The notes under the pieces were generated by a model. The model was not told the DNA's origin. It ran no database searches and saw only the letters and a program-made list of their open reading frames with translations. The translations under genes and the position numbers were made by a program. A stretch of DNA of 64,000 nt from the human T2T-CHM13v2.0 reference genome, Homo sapiens: contig CP086569.2 of NCBI GenBank assembly GCA_009914755.4, positions 8,544,001 through 8,608,000 of the forward strand, given 5' to 3'. Position 1 is the stretch's first letter; the number at the start of each line of letters is the position of its first letter. Shown one piece after another: positions 7,191 to 12,361 of the stretch.

Positions 7191-8802
7191 GGTCAAGTGC
7201 ACCCTTTCCTTTCCTGGTTCAAGGGAGTGACACAGTCTAGCCATGCTCCCTGGTACAAGCAAGAGCCCATGACTACCTCTGCTTCTGTGTCCCATTAAGT
7301 CTCTACCTCTACAAATGCTTTGGTTTTACTTCCACTCCTGCTTTTACTTGACCACACTTCTCTCTGCCACAGCCTCAGAGTAAGGCTCAAAAACTTGGTA
7401 GGGGAAGTAATGGAAGAAGAGAATTGAATTAGAAAAAAGAGAAGGAAGCAGAGAAGGAATGCTCTTCCTGAGAAATACATGAGTTTTTTATCTATCAAAT
7501 CACAGAAATTATTCTTCTTATGGTTTACAAAGGCATTTCACAATTGATCTATGATTAAATTTCCACAGTATCCCTGTATGATATAGATTACTGTATAATA
7601 TAGGTCATATAACATGATTATTATAGTTATCTTAATTTCTTACTCTTATACTAGTTAAGTAGAATGGATTGATCAAGTTCTTATGGCAGAAGACGAATAG
7701 GACTAACATTAAGACACACTCTCCTAACACAAACAAATTTCTTTTCTACCACACAGTATCCTACATGTGTAATAGAATTATTTTAAATTGAGTATATTTT
7801 AAGTTAAAGATATTATGATGTTTGGAAGCAGCATAGCAGTTGCTAAATAATGTGTTTTATGTGCTGGTGTACTAGACTGTACTACATTGTGATTATCAGT
7901 TTTCTCCTTCCCTTGGCTATCAGAAAACCTATCACAATATTAGCAATGGATATTTCACATTATTGTATATTCATTTATTTCCATAGAAACTGAAGGATCT
8001 CTTTTGGTGTCATGTAATAAATGTGCAATTAACCACAGCTATTTTATAGCTAACACACATTGTCATAGCTACAGTGAATAATACATTAAAACACAAAGGA
8101 GGTCACAATTATTTGCTCACATCCTACAAAGTCTAATTCAAAGACAACTACACTTAAGATCATAGTTATGCTTCTAATTTCATCTATATTTCCTCACCCC
8201 TTCTAGAGAAAGCTTATCTTCATCATTTTTATATCTATACATTTATTAACCAGCATTTCTTCAACTCAGTTTTCTGAGAAATTCTCAAATATTTTTTTAA
8301 AATATGAGCTCTTTCCTTAACCCCAAACTTGAATGTTCTATTTAAACTATAATTTTGATATCACACTAAGATTGTATGTTGAGGAAGATAAGCCCCCACC
8401 AATTTAGGGACAGGTGCCCTATCTCCAAATTTTTCTTTATTTATCTAATATCTCCAAATCAAATCATTTTTGTTGCCTATCTACTTTGACAACTTTTAAG
8501 TAGCTAAAATCATAACTATATAAACGTTGCAATGGGGAGAAAGCTGGAATGACTTCCAACACTTTGACTAAATAAATTTAAGCTAGGACATAAAGAAACT
8601 ATGAACTTGGAAACATAACAGGAGGATAACATTTTTTTAAAGAAAAACATTTAAAAAATGGAAAAGAGGTAGTAATTTGTGTATGCTAGTCATATTTAAC
8701 AATGCTGACCTTGTTAGCAGAAATAGGAGGGATCTAAAATTTTTAAAACATGGTCTACATAGGGCAATTATACTCAAATTAATTGTGTGAATTTTCCCCT
8801 AG

Positions 8803-8937
8803 GCTTTGGCAGATCAGATTTATCTGTGATATGCCATGCCTTGGAAGGCTATGATCATCAGCTGTGGCACAGACCTGCAATGGTTCCATACTTAGCAGCT
8901 CTTGGGTACTCACAGCTGCCCACTGTGTCAGGAACAT
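8803..8937 (+). CDS. S1 (chymotrypsin-fold) serine-protease-like exon carrying the catalytic-His motif (…CNGSILSSSWVLTAAHC…); N-terminal part reads …GYDHQLWHRPAMVPYLAAL (cf. IIGGxExxPHSRPYMA) in a different frame, so there is an internal frameshift
   Basis: Acceptor cccctag|g at 8802/8803, donor aacat|gtaagt at 8937/8938; translated motif WVLTAAHC is diagnostic of trypsin-like proteases. Confidence 0.55.
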
Positions 8938-9301
8938 GTAAGTTTGTGCCTGCCTCTTCCCATACTCTATAATTCATTATCCCATAATTACGTTGCTGAA
9001 AGTTTATCTGTCCAAATACACTTCTGTAATGCATGACCATATCACTTATACAGATACCTTTTTTTTTTAGGCTTAAAAGAAATTGCCTCACTGTGTTTGG
9101 CTTATTAGTACCTCTGTTAGTTAATTCCTCTGCAATCCCATTGTCTGTGGACTCTTTATTCATAGATTTCTGATTTCAGTGAAGATGAGCTACGGACCTT
9201 GTTTATCATGACTAAAACAATATGCTGGAAAGCCTGATGTAGGTTTAAGGTTCAGGTTTTCTAATGAATGTACTGTAATAAATCTTTGCCTATGAACTCA
9301 G

Positions 9302-9548
9302 GAATCCTGAAGATACTGCTGTGTTACTGGGCCTGAGGCACCCTGGGGCACCACTGAGAGTTGTGAAGGCGTCTATCACTCTACTGCATGAGAGGTTCCA
9401 GTTGGTGAGTGGGGCAGCAAGAAATGACCTGGCATTGCACTCCTCCAAGATGTCCAGACCCGCTTTCAGCTCTTATCACTCTTGGGCTATCTGAAGAACC
9501 TGAATAGCTCAGAATGCTGGCTCTCTGGGCCACAAATCATTATACCAG
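9302..9548 (+). CDS. Serine-protease-like exon with catalytic-Asp region: NPEDTAVLLGLRHPGAPLRVVKASITLLHERFQLVSGAARNDLALHSSKMSRPAFSSYHSWAI*, then …SECWLSGPQ in another frame (cf. VVLGAHN…NDIMLLKL…GTxCxxSGWG)
   Basis: Acceptor ctcag|g at 9301/9302, donor cag|gt at 9548/9549; alignment by eye to complement factor D / elastase / granzyme exon 3; in-frame TGA at ~9491 followed by frame change. Confidence 0.5.
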
Positions 9549-10014
9549 GTCATTGGATAATTTTCTTATTAGGATAGTAGTTCTAAAAAAATGAGGTTCA
9601 TATTTTTAATATTACAGTTCAAGGCATAAGTATAATCACATTTGCATATATTATTAATTATAAGATATTTAATCCACATCATAGACCCACTAGGAGGTTT
9701 GTTTTTGGTTTATAAGATGATGGTTCTGATGATAACTTCACAGGATTTTAGATGTAACAAAAGTTATATGAGGAACTTTCTCTGTACAGTCTAGTTTTGT
9801 AAAGCAAAGTAGAGACGATTTCCTTCCCAACTCTTTGCTCACTTTGGAACAAAGGAAAAGGAAGTGTTTTGTATTGTTTTGTTTCATTTTTACCTCTTTA
9901 TGAAAATCTACTCGAAGTTGACTTGGAATTTTGAATTTCAAATGTGAAAATTGACTTGTTAATTTTGCAAAATGGAATTTAAAAAATTATTAAAAAGTGA
10001 CAAGGCTGTCTCCA

Positions 10015-10303
10015 TTGACTCACCACTGTAATTTCAGCAATTTGGGAACTTAAACTAAGAGGACACTGAGTCCAGGAATTTGAGACCAGCTTGGGCAATA
10101 TAGCAGGACTTCATCATTAAGCACGTAAACAAAAACATAGCCTGGTTGGTGTTGCACACATGTAGTCCTAGCTATGTGGGAGGCTGAGGCAGGATGATAG
10201 CTTGAGTCCAGGAGGTCAAGGCTGCAGTGAGTGAAGATTGTGCCAATGCATTCCAGCCTGGGTGACCAACCAAGAACTTGTCTCAAACAAACAAACAAAA
10301 AAA
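10015..10303 (+). mobile_element. Alu SINE (+), diverged
   Basis: …cactgtaatttcagcaatttgggaa…ggaatttgagaccagcttgggcaatatagc…ccagcctgggtgaccaaccaagaacttgtctcaaacaaacaaacaaaaaaa. Confidence 0.8.
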
Positions 10304-10602: not shown

Positions 10603-10810
10603 CTAAAAAGATAATGAAATAGAAAAAATGTGTGATGTAAAATATTAATGGTGATAAAATGAACTGAATTTCTGTATAAAATTTATAGACACAAGTTTAA
10701 AGTGATGACGAGATGTAAGTGATAAGACAAATCATAGTTTTATCTTAACACTTAGGGTTTAAATTTAACATATTTTCTTAAGGATAGTTATAGTCCATTT
10801 GTCTTTCTAG

Positions 10811-10960
10811 GACGAACCGATGACAATCCAGAAATATTAGAAGCATGTGATGGAAGCTTCCAGCTATGCCCACCTGTACCCTGACATAGACAGTTCCATT
10901 GTTTGCTTCATTACTCAGGTCAAAGACTCTGATGCAAATGTGGTACACCGTCAATTTTTT
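10811..10960 (+). CDS. Serine-protease-like exon (exon-4 equivalent): …TDDNPEILEACDGSFQLC… then, after a frameshift, …HLYPDIDSSIVCFITQVKDSDANVV (cf. trypsin YPDVLKCL…[33 protein letters not shown]). GDSGGP catalytic-Ser motif is absent
   Basis: Acceptor tctttctag|g at 10810/10811; motif alignment by eye; 3' boundary uncertain. Confidence 0.4.
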
Positions 10961-11480
10961 TTTCTTACTAGTGATAGGAACCATAACTTTGTCCCTATAC
11001 AAAAGAGTATACTGCATATGCCTAAATGATAAATATAAGTGAATCATTGATCAGTAGGAAACCATTTTAAAACTCTTTAATTACAGAACAAAGTCTCTGA
11101 AAAAATTTTATTGTTAATCTCTGAGTTTTCTTACATGGGTTTTCAATCTCTAGCCACACTATATAGCTAGTATGCTGCTCTACACATAAATTAGACATTC
11201 TATATTATTCTCTTATTCTAATAATAGTATCTTCACACATCAGAGTTTAAAACAAGTCTCATTTTTTCTATTTCTCCAGTTAAAATAACTTTTTAAGATT
11301 TAATTTTCAGTGATTTTTTTGTAGTAATACTTTTGAAAGTGTTTGATCAGGATGGTTTATTATGCATTTATCTGATGTCTCCCTTCCTTCTGAATACATC
11401 TTTTATTATCCACTTATTAAATCTATGATTAATAATTTGGAATAGGGATTTAAATCCAAATGCTATGTTTGAATTTACAG

Positions 11481-11681
11481 GAGTCAGTGAGCCTAGGAAG
11501 TGCCATTATGTGCAGACCAGTATCTGGCAATGGCAGTTGGAGACAAATAGCCTTCACCAGTCTCAAAGCCCTAGCTACTACAGTGAGTCCACATTTTGCC
11601 TGGACTTATCTATTCAGCAAAAGAAGGCCACCCAATAAATCAGGCCCTTGCGCCTTGGGTAGAAACTCCGAAGTCCTCTAG
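11481..11681 (+). CDS. Serine-protease-like terminal exon: ESVSLGSAIMCRPVSGNGSWRQIAFTSLKALATTVSPHFAWTYLFSKRRPPNKSGPCALGRNSEVL* (cf. …MCAxxxxxDSCxGDSGGPLVC…KPGIYTRVASYAAWIDS). The GDSGG motif is replaced by VSGNGS, so it is predicted catalytically inactive
   Basis: Acceptor tttacag|gag at 11480/11481; ORF-track ORF 11460-11681; C-terminal 'T.VS.Y..W' motif typical of S1 protease C-terminus; stop at 11679-11681. Confidence 0.45.
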   Translation, partial: ESVSLGSAIMCRPVSGNGSWRQIAFTSLKALATTVSPHFAWTYLFSKRRPPNKSGPCALGRNSEVL

Positions 11682-12361
11682 TCTCCTTAAACAGCCAACC
11701 ACACTGCCATTTTCCTCAATAATAATTACTGCAGCCCAAGGACTTTGGTAGCCTAGTGACTATAACCAGTGGTGCCACAGTCTGGTCACAGTATGACAAA
11801 ACACCAGAGTATCAACGAGGAAAATCTTGACTTAGCCTTCCAAAATCTATCTCAATATACCTTCAATAAAGATGGCTTTTCTTCATAACAACTGCTTTCT
11901 ACCTACTTCCTGAACTAATGCATGGCCTTGGATTGTTTTTATTCTTGAAAATGATTCAAAAGTTCATATTTAATATGAACATGAATGCAGGATTTTATTC
12001 ATCAGCATAAGAATTTTCAAAATGATGTGAAATCCAAATGTGGAATTATATTTGTGAACTTTGTCTTTCAAATTATATTTTCATACCAACTAACTCACAC
12101 AGTTTTATGTAACTATCTGAATATTCTCCTCAGGTGGGGGAAAACCAGTGTCAGAGTTCTTGAAGAATTTATGAAATAGAAAATGACAATAGTACATAAG
12201 GTTTTACCTATTCACAATACTGTATTTAGTGAATGAAAACATTACTTTTAAAATCCTACTTAAGTACTGAGTAAATAAATAAAGCATATTATTCCAATAA
12301 CTCTAAAGTATGTGTTCATGAAGAAAATACAGCAAGGGTTAAAATGCATAAACAAACAAAT

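What the first reader, a model, noticed from the sequence alone, without database searches (positions are those of the whole stretch)
8780..11700. Multi-exon S1 serine-protease-like locus with retained His/Asp but degraded catalytic Ser motif (PRSSLY-like?)
Four + strand segments with canonical splice sites translate to recognisable chymotrypsin-fold motifs in the correct order. Exon 2 gives …PHSRPYMA-like (HRPAMVPYLAAL) then CNGSILSSSWVLTAAHC. Exon 3 gives VLLG(AHN)…NDLAL… then …ECWLSG(WG) in a shifted frame. Exon 4 gives PEILEAC…YPDIDSSIVCFIT.VKDS. The last exon gives …VSGNGSW…TTVSPHFAWTYL*. The GDSGGP active-site box is replaced or deleted, and at least one frameshift sits inside exons 2, 3 and 4. 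The neighbouring RBMY pseudogene places the window on the Y, so this could be the Y-linked 'serine protease-like' gene, PRSSLY in other mammals. I cannot verify the human annotation, so the product is called as serine-protease-like and the gene name remains a hypothesis. A signal-peptide first exon was not found, and may lie in 7.2-8.8 kb.
Basis: partly seen in the sequence, partly recalled or inferred. Interest (0 to 1): 0.75.

Follow-up and report, generated by a model that had tools for sequence, protein, structure and literature searches.

The report
Decayed Y-linked PRSSLY pseudogene copy
This is a dead, intron-containing copy of PRSSLY, a Y-chromosome gene for a protease-like protein already reported as a pseudogene in humans and other monkeys and apes; it is ordinary, except that it is a separate, older copy than the published human one.

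Summary
Four + strand exons (8803-8937, 9302-9548, 10811-10942, 11481-11885), all with AG/GT splice sites, encode a trypsin-like domain. The frame-repaired peptide passes the Pfam Trypsin threshold and matches eutherian PRSSLY-type proteins at 60-75% identity (E down to 1e-118). Ordinary S1 proteases in the PDB match an intact PRSSLY-type protein only at about E 1e-12.

The locus is collinear with the published human PRSSLY pseudogene model (Hughes et al. 2022). It is a non-coding, unprocessed pseudogene. Domain 2 carries five frameshifts and one in-frame stop. The upstream remnant has three more stops and further indels, an AluY and a solo LTR. A 2.8-kb deletion removed PRSSLY's first trypsin-like domain.

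- The "degraded GDSGGP" box is ancestral. Every intact ortholog examined has EPV(T/S)PGSAVMC, with Ser195 replaced by Pro.
- No signal-peptide exon exists. The upstream exon is the tail of PRSSLY's giant repeat-rich exon, ending at 7379.
- "HRPAMVPYLAAL" is an out-of-frame reading.

This copy is only 84-86% identical to the published human, chimpanzee and rhesus models and branches outside them. An SVA element places the window in a great ape or human, so this is an old paralogous copy. It lies beside RBMY-like and TSPY-like pseudogenes. Interest is low.

The parts
3061..7170 (+). Remnant of PRSSLY's giant repeat-rich upstream exon (WTQ/NPW-type repeats). It is 5'-truncated, with no similarity to the first ~830 nt of the published model, and carries 51-87 stop codons in every frame.
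   Evidence: blastn of the human model: model 898-1280 = window 3272-3653 (88%), and model 1270-1465 = window 6980-7173 (80%). Stop counts come, and the sequence was read.
4581..4883 (-). AluY-type insertion inside the giant-exon remnant, flanked by the direct repeat CATTAATCTTC.
   Evidence: Read directly. The Alu class was recognised from memory of the consensus and was not checked against a database.
5329..6437 (.). Solo LTR (ERVK-like start TGTTGTGGGAAGTCAGGGACC) inserted in the giant-exon remnant, with a 6-bp target duplication TTGGAC.
   Evidence: Read directly. The LTR family assignment is from memory only.
7171..7228 (+). The last 58 nt of trypsin-like domain 1 (TKP*VFGQVHPFLSWFKGV). 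The junction of a ~2.84-kb deletion (model 1465-4305) lies at 7171-7173.
   Evidence: Lemur domain 1 nt 593-650 = window 7171-7228 (86%), and the rest of the domain is absent from the whole window. The full domain is present in the human model.
7229..7379 (+). Inter-domain linker and end of the giant exon. It contains two in-frame stops, one 1-nt and one 3-nt deletion, and one extra base at the donor (CCTCAG-A|GTAAGG).
   Evidence: and the sequence.
8803..8937 (+). Domain-2 exon A: ALADQIYL*YAMPWKAMIISCG, then a 2-nt deletion at about 8869/8870, then CNGSILSSSWVLTAAHCVRNM. The stop TGA is at 8827-8829 and the His57 codon CAC at 8921-8923.
   Evidence: Acceptor cccctag| and donor |gtaagt were read.
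9302..9548 (+). Domain-2 exon B: NPEDTAVLLGLRHPGAPLRVVKASITLLHERFQLVSGAARNDLAL, then a 1-nt deletion at about 9438, then LLQDVQTRFQLLSLLGYLKNLNSSECWLSGPQIIIP. The Asp102 codon GAC is at 9426-9428.
   Evidence: tblastn against walrus: 84% and 73% identity in two frames.
10811..10942 (+). Domain-2 exon C: GRTDDNPEILE, then a 2-nt deletion at about 10842, then HVMEASSYAHLYPDIDSSIVCFITQVKDSDANV. A nearly invariant Cys is replaced by Tyr (TAT at 10865-10867).
11481..11885 (+). Domain-2 exon D plus the 3' UTR: ESVSLGSAIMCRPVSGNGSWRQIAFTSLKALATTVSPHFAW, then two 1-nt deletions at about 11605 and 11613, then SAKEGHPINQALAPWVETPKSSSLLKQPTTLPFSSIIITAAQGLW*. The Ser195-equivalent codon is CTA (Leu) at 11493-11495, the ancestral stop TAG is at 11749-11751, and AATAAA is at 11865-11870.
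   Evidence: The model aligns through 11843.
18328..28155 (+). Neighbouring RBMY-like unprocessed pseudogene. It gives context for Y linkage and is not part of PRSSLY.
   Evidence: tblastn bit scores are about twice as high for RBMY1 as for RBMX. There are several in-frame stops and a single SRGY box.

Best explanation
Window 3061-11885 (+) is an unprocessed, non-coding pseudogene copy of PRSSLY, the Y-linked 'protease, serine-like' gene of eutherian mammals.

Intact PRSSLY has a giant repeat-rich exon, a first trypsin-like domain, a linker, and a second trypsin-like domain. The first domain has His57 replaced by Arg and Ser195 by Leu. The second keeps His57 and Asp102 but has Pro in place of Ser195 and no IVGG activation motif.

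This copy arose by DNA-level duplication on an early anthropoid Y chromosome (inferred). It then decayed:
- its 5' end was lost;
- a 2.84-kb deletion removed almost all of domain 1;
- an AluY and a solo LTR inserted into the upstream exon;
- five frameshifts, one stop and a Cys-to-Tyr change hit domain 2.

It makes no protease-like protein. At most it is a low-level spliced non-coding transcript, as published for the human PRSSLY pseudogene (not tested here).
For: Shown here:
- Pfam Trypsin match.
- 14 eutherian proteins named 'serine protease 52-like' or '55-like' match at 60-75% identity, E 1e-80 to 1e-118. The sea-lion protein continues upstream into the PRSSLY domain-1 sequence given in Hughes et al..
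- An intact ortholog matches ordinary S1 proteases in the PDB only at about E 1e-12.
- blastn is collinear with the published human PRSSLY model across the giant exon, linker, four exons and 3' UTR.
- Exon breaks fall at the same protein positions (75/116/199/243) in the takin, elephant and hare loci.
- Lesions were catalogued against the intact walrus and lemur ORFs.
- No open stretch spans a domain. The longest is 186 codons, in the repeat part.
- Only 58 nt of domain 1 remain.
- Ka/Ks among the primate copies is 0.57-0.80, against 0.20-0.25 versus walrus.

Against: - All splice sites and a poly(A) signal are intact, so a transcript, and therefore an RNA-level role, cannot be excluded.
- Ka/Ks among the copies is somewhat below 1, though not significantly, so a short period of constraint after duplication is possible.
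- Expression of this particular copy was not tested. The 5' end and promoter of the model are absent from the window.
- Species and chromosomal position were not determined directly. Great-ape or human origin rests on an SVA element, and Y linkage rests on the RBMY-like and TSPY-like neighbours.
Confidence: 0.93

Rival explanations
1. This is the single human PRSSLY pseudogene already modelled by Hughes et al. 2022, meaning the same locus and nothing more.
For: It has the same gene family, the same overall architecture and collinear alignment. [quoted passage not shown]
Against: - Identity to the published human model is only 80-90% per segment, 85.8% over the aligned tail.
- The window lacks 2.84 kb that the model has, including domain 1.
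- The disabling lesions differ. Only one indel position coincides, and there with different lengths.
- In the neighbour-joining tree the three published models group together and exclude the window (97% bootstrap).
- An SVA element indicates a great ape or human, so species divergence cannot explain a distance of about 16%.
Confidence: 0.04
2. It is a pseudogene of a different testis serine protease (PRSS55, PRSS52 or similar) that moved to the Y, not of PRSSLY.
For: NCBI names the closest proteins 'serine protease 52-like' or '55-like'. PRSS55 is reported as PRSSLY's closest paralog (PMC9178871).
Against: - Those names are automatic. The sea-lion hit contains PRSSLY domain-1 sequence identical in translation to the paper's sea-lion PRSSLY.
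- Similarity extends beyond the domain into the PRSSLY-specific giant exon, linker and 3' UTR.
- The family-specific EPV(T/S)PGSAVMC box and the C-terminal tail are shared.
Confidence: 0.01
3. The locus is retained as a functional spliced long non-coding RNA or a regulatory element, rather than being a neutral relic.
For: - Canonical splice dinucleotides and an AATAAA signal are retained.
- Low-level transcription of primate PRSSLY pseudogenes has been published.
Against: - Keeping 16 splice-site bases intact at about 15% divergence is expected by chance in roughly 7-18% of cases, so it is not evidence of selection.
- Exons are no better conserved between copies than expected for neutral sequence (Ks 0.17-0.22, Ka 0.12-0.14).
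- The 5' end of the gene is missing, and the upstream exon is broken by Alu and LTR insertions.
Confidence: 0.05

Closest known systems
PRSSLY (protease, serine-like, Y-linked; Hughes et al. 2022, BMC Biol 20:133, PMC9178871), including its published human, chimpanzee and rhesus pseudogene models
   Same: - Same architecture: giant repeat-rich exon, linker, four-exon second trypsin-like domain and 3' UTR.
- Same intron positions.
- Same family-specific replacement of the GDSGGP box.
- Same Y-chromosome context.
- Same pseudogene status in anthropoid primates.
   Different: - 14-16% nucleotide distance from each published primate model, branching outside them.
- Lacks the first trypsin-like domain (2.84-kb deletion) and the 5' ~830 nt of the model.
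- Has its own set of frameshifts and stops, plus an AluY and a solo LTR insertion.
Intact eutherian PRSSLY C-terminal domain proteins, annotated 'serine protease 52-like' or '55-like' (for example bear A0A452QDA7, and sea lion, takin and elephant predictions)
   Same: 60-75% amino-acid identity over the whole repaired domain. TAAHC and NDLAL are conserved, Ser195 is absent, and the C-terminal tail ends at the same stop.
   Different: Those proteins have open reading frames. The window has five frameshifts, a stop, Cys-to-Tyr, and Leu instead of Pro at the Ser195 position.
PRSS55 and other catalytically active S1 peptidases (kallikreins, PSA, trypsin)
   Same: Chymotrypsin fold by Pfam and PDB sequence match. 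His57 and Asp102 sit in their usual motifs.
   Different: - The sequence relationship is only distant: an intact PRSSLY-type protein matches the best PDB chains at about E 1e-12, against E 1e-118 for the window's repaired peptide versus PRSSLY orthologs.
- There is no Ser195, no Cys191, and no IVGG activation N-terminus, so it is not expected to be a working protease even when intact.

Membership tests
Peptidase S1 / chymotrypsin fold (Pfam PF00089) | Profile match above the curated threshold | tested here: met
   42.8 bits against a cut-off of 20.6, E 6.9e-11, for the frame-repaired peptide. Exon A alone gives 31.8 bits.
Peptidase S1 / chymotrypsin fold (Pfam PF00089) | Complete catalytic triad His57-Asp102-Ser195 | tested here: not met
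   His (TAAHC) and Asp (NDLAL) are present. The Ser195 position is Leu here and Pro in all 10 intact orthologs aligned, mapped through the alignment to PSA 2zch.
Peptidase S1 / chymotrypsin fold (Pfam PF00089) | Zymogen activation N-terminus (Ile16-Val-Gly-Gly) | tested here: not met
   The stretch before the PWQ motif is LADRISLRY in orthologs and LADQIYL*Y here. No IVGG is seen in the alignments.
PRSSLY | Closest proteins are PRSSLY orthologs, far above other S1 proteases | tested here: met
   E 1e-80 to 1e-118 and 60-75% identity to 14 eutherian proteins. The sea-lion hit carries PRSSLY domain-1 sequence. An intact ortholog matches the PDB at best at E 1e-12.
PRSSLY | Collinear with the published PRSSLY sequence outside the protease-like domain (giant exon, linker, 3' UTR) | tested here: met
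   Seven collinear blastn segments at 80-90% identity.
PRSSLY | Conserved exon-intron structure of the second domain | tested here: met
   Breaks at walrus residues ~75/116/199/243 in the window and in the takin, elephant and hare genomic loci. AG/GT is present at every boundary.
PRSSLY | First trypsin-like domain (the conserved domain used for Ka/Ks by Hughes et al.) | tested here: not met
   Only its last 58 nt remain (7171-7228). The rest is not found anywhere in the window, while the positive control in the human model is complete.
PRSSLY | Long intact open reading frame (functional gene) | tested here: not met
   Domain 2 has five frameshifts and one stop, and the upstream remnant has three more stops in the tail of domain 1 and the linker. 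Every frame of the giant-exon remnant has 51-87 stops. The longest open stretch is 186 codons.
PRSSLY | Y linkage | tested here: inconclusive
   An RBMY-like pseudogene (closer to RBMY than RBMX) and two TSPY-like pseudogene pieces lie within 35 kb. The window was not mapped to a chromosome, and the query proteins came from memory.
PRSSLY | Testis-specific transcription | not testable with these tools
   No expression data are available here. The literature reports low-level transcription of the human pseudogene.
Published human PRSSLY pseudogene model (same locus) | Near-identity to the model sequence | tested here: not met
   85.8% identity over the aligned tail, different lesions, a 2.84-kb difference in content, and placement outside the three models in the tree.
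Processed (retrotransposed) pseudogene | Loss of introns, poly(A) tract, target-site duplication | tested here: not met
   Four introns of 360-1420 bp are retained at the ancestral positions.

The most novel reading that the evidence does not exclude
Great-ape and human Y chromosomes carry at least two ancient PRSSLY-derived lineages: this copy and the published model type. They separated before or around the catarrhine radiation, while the domain was still conserved. Only 1 of 94 ortholog-invariant residues is changed in all four primate copies, and no frameshift or stop is shared by all four. On this reading PRSSLY was duplicated in early anthropoids, possibly together with RBMY and TSPY, and each copy was then disabled independently. 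That would contradict the published view that PRSSLY is single-copy.
Probability: 0.35. Interest if true: 0.45.

Novelty: new member of a known kind. Interest (0 to 1): 0.25.

Why it matters
The finding changes little on its own. PRSSLY pseudogenes on anthropoid Y chromosomes have been published, and this locus makes no protein. It has three modest uses.

1. It shows that the published "human PRSSLY pseudogene" is not the only PRSSLY-derived sequence in great apes and humans. That affects copy-number statements, read mapping and expression estimates for this gene.
2. The four compared copies share no frameshift or stop, so duplication probably came before inactivation. This bears on how and when PRSSLY was lost in primates.
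3. It documents that PRSSLY has two trypsin-like domains, each lacking a full catalytic triad even when the gene is intact. Any function, such as the mouse sex-ratio effect, is therefore unlikely to be proteolysis.

Tried and rejected
- **Pfam on single exons.** Exons B and D alone gave no hit, being too short and divergent. Only exon A and the joined peptide pass.
- **Metagenome scan.** A degenerate 28-mer matching all known primate copies found nothing in the metagenome contigs, so the window could not be tied to a sample or species this way.
- **Exact look-up of the sea-lion protein.** No record was found.
- **Is PRSSLY-to-RBMY adjacency ancestral?** No RBMY or RBMX similarity lies within 10 kb on either side of the intact domain-2 gene models in takin, elephant or hare. 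The idea is not supported at that range.
- **A second PRSSLY copy, or the missing domain 1, elsewhere in the window.** None was found.
- **Tandem Repeats Finder on the giant-exon remnant.** It found nothing. The repeats are too diverged.
- **Pfam on ten long ORFs elsewhere in the window.** Only L1 ORF1 domains were hit.
Rejected as an out-of-frame overlap.
- **Chance motif clustering, a processed pseudogene, and a PRSS55-type origin.** All were considered and rejected (see rival explanations and membership tests).

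
Full report

Yes.
- exon A: YAMPWKAMIISCG, then CNGSILSSSWVLTAAHCVRNM;
- exon B: NPEDTAVLLGLRHPGAPLRVVK...ARNDLAL, then LLQDVQT...NSSECWLSGPQIIIP;
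- exon C: GRTDDNPEILE, then HVMEASSYAHLYPDIDSSIVCFITQVKDSDANV;
- exon D: ESVSLGSAIMCRPVSGNGSWRQIAFTSLKALATTVSPHFAW.

The joined peptide matches Pfam Trypsin (PF00089) at 42.8 bits against a threshold of 20.6, E 6.9e-11. Exact exon limits are 8803-8937, 9302-9548, 10811-10942 and 11481-~11885. Each has an AG acceptor and each internal exon has a GT donor.

**2. What is it?**

That paper describes PRSSLY as a Y-linked, testis-specific, serine-protease-like gene of eutherians. [quoted passage not shown]

Its Additional file 9 gives model sequences. blastn of the human model against the window is collinear:

| Human model (nt) | Window (nt) | Identity |
|---|---|---|
| 898-1280 | 3272-3653 | 88% |
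| 1270-1465 | 6980-7173 | 80% |
| 4305-4516 | 7171-7379 | 80% |
| 4514-4653 | 8801-8938 | 85% |
| 4650-4899 | 9299-9549 | 86.5% |
| 4904-5032 | 10816-10943 | 90% |
| 5031-5396 | 11480-11843 | 86% |

Independently, the frame-repaired peptide finds 14 eutherian proteins at 60-75% identity, E 1e-80 to 1e-118. They are annotated 'serine protease 52-like' or '55-like' and come from bear, takin, sea lion, elephant, sloth, tenrec, hare, several rodents and others. The sea-lion protein continues N-terminally into the sequence that the paper lists as sea-lion PRSSLY domain 1. An intact ortholog matches ordinary S1 proteases in the PDB only at about E 1e-12.

Genomic loci of the takin, elephant and hare proteins break at the same protein positions as the window. 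The introns are therefore ancestral, and this is an unprocessed copy.

**3. Anatomy of intact PRSSLY, and what the window holds**

The walrus and lemur sequences translate as one frame. It runs through a first trypsin-like domain (EFPWMVSVQLSFSHFCAGS...LTTARC...GCKGDLGAPLVC), a Ser/Thr-rich linker (...FISLPQPQ), and then a second trypsin-like domain.

In all 10 intact orthologs aligned, domain 2 keeps TAAHC (His57) and NDLAL (Asp102) but reads EPV(T/S)PGSAVMC where active enzymes read GDSGGPLVC. Aligned to PSA, Ser195 is Pro and Cys191 is absent. There is also no IVGG activation motif. The 'degraded catalytic Ser motif' is therefore a family trait, not pseudogene decay. The window has Leu at that position (CTA, 11493-11495).

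Domain 1 lacks His57 (Arg) and Ser195 (Leu) even in intact species. From this I infer that intact PRSSLY is a pseudoprotease.

**4. Why it is a pseudogene**

Against the walrus frame, the lesions are as follows.
- Tail of domain 1 and linker: three in-frame stops (TKP*, SH*V, FT*P), one 1-nt and one 3-nt deletion, and one extra base at the donor (CAG-A|GTAAGG).
- Exon A: a stop (TGA, 8827-8829) and a 2-nt deletion.
- Exon B: a 1-nt deletion.
- Exon C: a 2-nt deletion and loss of a nearly invariant Cys (Tyr, 10865-10867).
- Exon D: two 1-nt deletions.

The 2.84 kb corresponding to model 1465-4305 is deleted at 7171-7173. This removes all but the last 58 nt of domain 1.

The giant-exon remnant (3061-7170) has 51-87 stops in every frame. 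It is interrupted by an AluY-type element (4581-4883, with a target duplication) and a solo LTR (5329-6437, target duplication TTGGAC). It shows no similarity to the first ~830 nt of the model.

A hypothetical spliced RNA has no open stretch longer than 186 codons, and none spans a domain. Ka/Ks among the primate copies is 0.57-0.80, against 0.20-0.25 for each copy versus walrus. That means mostly neutral evolution since the copies separated.

**5. It is not the published human model**

Over about 1.05 kb of aligned tail, the window and the human, chimpanzee and rhesus models are all 84-87.5% identical to one another. The human and chimpanzee models are therefore themselves far too different to be simple orthologs.

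With lemur and walrus as outgroups, the four anthropoid sequences form a clade (100% bootstrap). The three published models group together and exclude the window (97%).

Substitutions polarised by the outgroups give 19 shared by all four copies and 27-36 private to each. Of 94 residues invariant in 11 intact orthologs, each primate copy has changed 14-19, but only one is changed in all four. No frameshift or stop is shared by all four.

A 596-nt contig from an ENA metagenome assembly (L001) is yet another copy, 87.6% identical to the window and 89.7% to the human model.

The window contains a complete SVA element (29602-31014, - strand). From general knowledge, SVA elements are restricted to great apes and humans. 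The window therefore comes from such a species, and this copy is an old paralog of the published ones. This is an inference. The window was not mapped to an assembly.

**6. Surroundings**

- An RBMY-like unprocessed pseudogene lies downstream on the same strand (18328-28155). It is clearly closer to RBMY1 than to RBMX, has several in-frame stops, and has a single SRGY box.
- Two diverged TSPY-like pseudogene pieces lie on the - strand (13308-15310 and 41339-43577).
- The GC-rich stretch between the first TSPY-like piece and the RBMY-like gene is CpG-depleted.

These neighbours support Y linkage. In takin, elephant and hare, no RBMY lies within 10 kb of the intact gene, so adjacency to RBMY is not shown to be ancestral.

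**7. Mechanism and rivals**

The best explanation is a DNA-level duplicate of PRSSLY that lost its 5' end and first domain and decayed neutrally (confidence 0.93). It encodes nothing and may at most be a weak non-coding transcript.

Three rivals were considered:
- It is the same locus as the published model. Sequence distance, content and tree position reject this.
- It derives from another PRSS gene. Collinearity outside the domain and the family-specific motifs reject this.
- It is a functional non-coding RNA. This is not excluded, but conservation gives it no support.

**8. Verdict**

The points added here are:
- the missing Ser is ancestral;
- the region is PRSSLY's second domain, and the first is deleted;
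- no signal-peptide exon exists;
- this is a separate, early-branching copy, which hints that PRSSLY-derived sequence is multi-copy on great-ape and human Y chromosomes.

Interest is low (0.25).

Noticed in passing
window 18328-28155 (+): An RBMY-like unprocessed pseudogene with at least 8 exon matches. tblastn bit scores are about twice those for RBMX. It has in-frame stops (IKG*TSK, PPA*GP, NNT*DR, ES*SGK) and only one SRGY box, which from memory resembles the RBMY2 class.
   Followed up: partly
window 13308-15310 (-) and 41339-43577 (-): Two strongly diverged TSPY-like pseudogene pieces, 30-55% amino-acid identity to TSPY1 as recalled from memory. The first lies head-to-head with the RBMY-like pseudogene across a GC-rich but CpG-depleted stretch (CpG o/e 0.06-0.52).
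   Followed up: partly
window 29602-31014 (-): A complete SVA retrotransposon: SINE-R part, VNTR, Alu-like part and a (CCCTCT)n end. Its VNTR produces the spurious 264-aa ORF at 29881-30675. Its presence indicates that the window comes from a great ape or human.
   Followed up: partly
Hughes et al. 2022 Additional file 9 (human, chimpanzee and rhesus models) compared with window 7171-11850: The published human, chimpanzee and rhesus PRSSLY pseudogene models differ from one another by 12.5-13% (JC distance about 0.14-0.15, Ks 0.17-0.22). That is far more than human-chimpanzee orthologs should differ. They are probably different paralogs, which is at odds with the paper's single-copy statement.
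   Followed up: partly
L001 (ENA ERZ1023324, 596-nt contig), positions 267-596: Another PRSSLY exon-B copy, 87.6% identical to the window and 89.7% to the human model. Its first 266 nt are unrelated GC-rich sequence, so this copy is rearranged. The host species is unknown.
   Followed up: partly
P0001-P0014; L002-L004: In many mammals NCBI and UniProt annotate PRSSLY's second trypsin-like domain as a separate ~300-aa protein named 'serine protease 52-like'. One sloth entry is named 'chymotrypsin-like elastase 2A'. These names hide that the proteins are parts of PRSSLY and that they lack Ser195.
   Followed up: partly
window 55719-59819 (-): An L1 element. There is an ORF1 fragment with both L1 RBD-like and dsRBD-like Pfam domains (59259-59819) and an ORF2 C-terminal piece (55719-56120).
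   Followed up: partly
window 10000-10600 and 12350-12500: Alu elements lie inside the exon B-C intron and downstream of the pseudogene. They were recognised by eye only.
   Followed up: no
window 49200-51000: A GC-rich stretch (about 0.50) with overlapping 120-180-aa ORFs on both strands. None matches Pfam, and its nature is not determined.
   Followed up: partly
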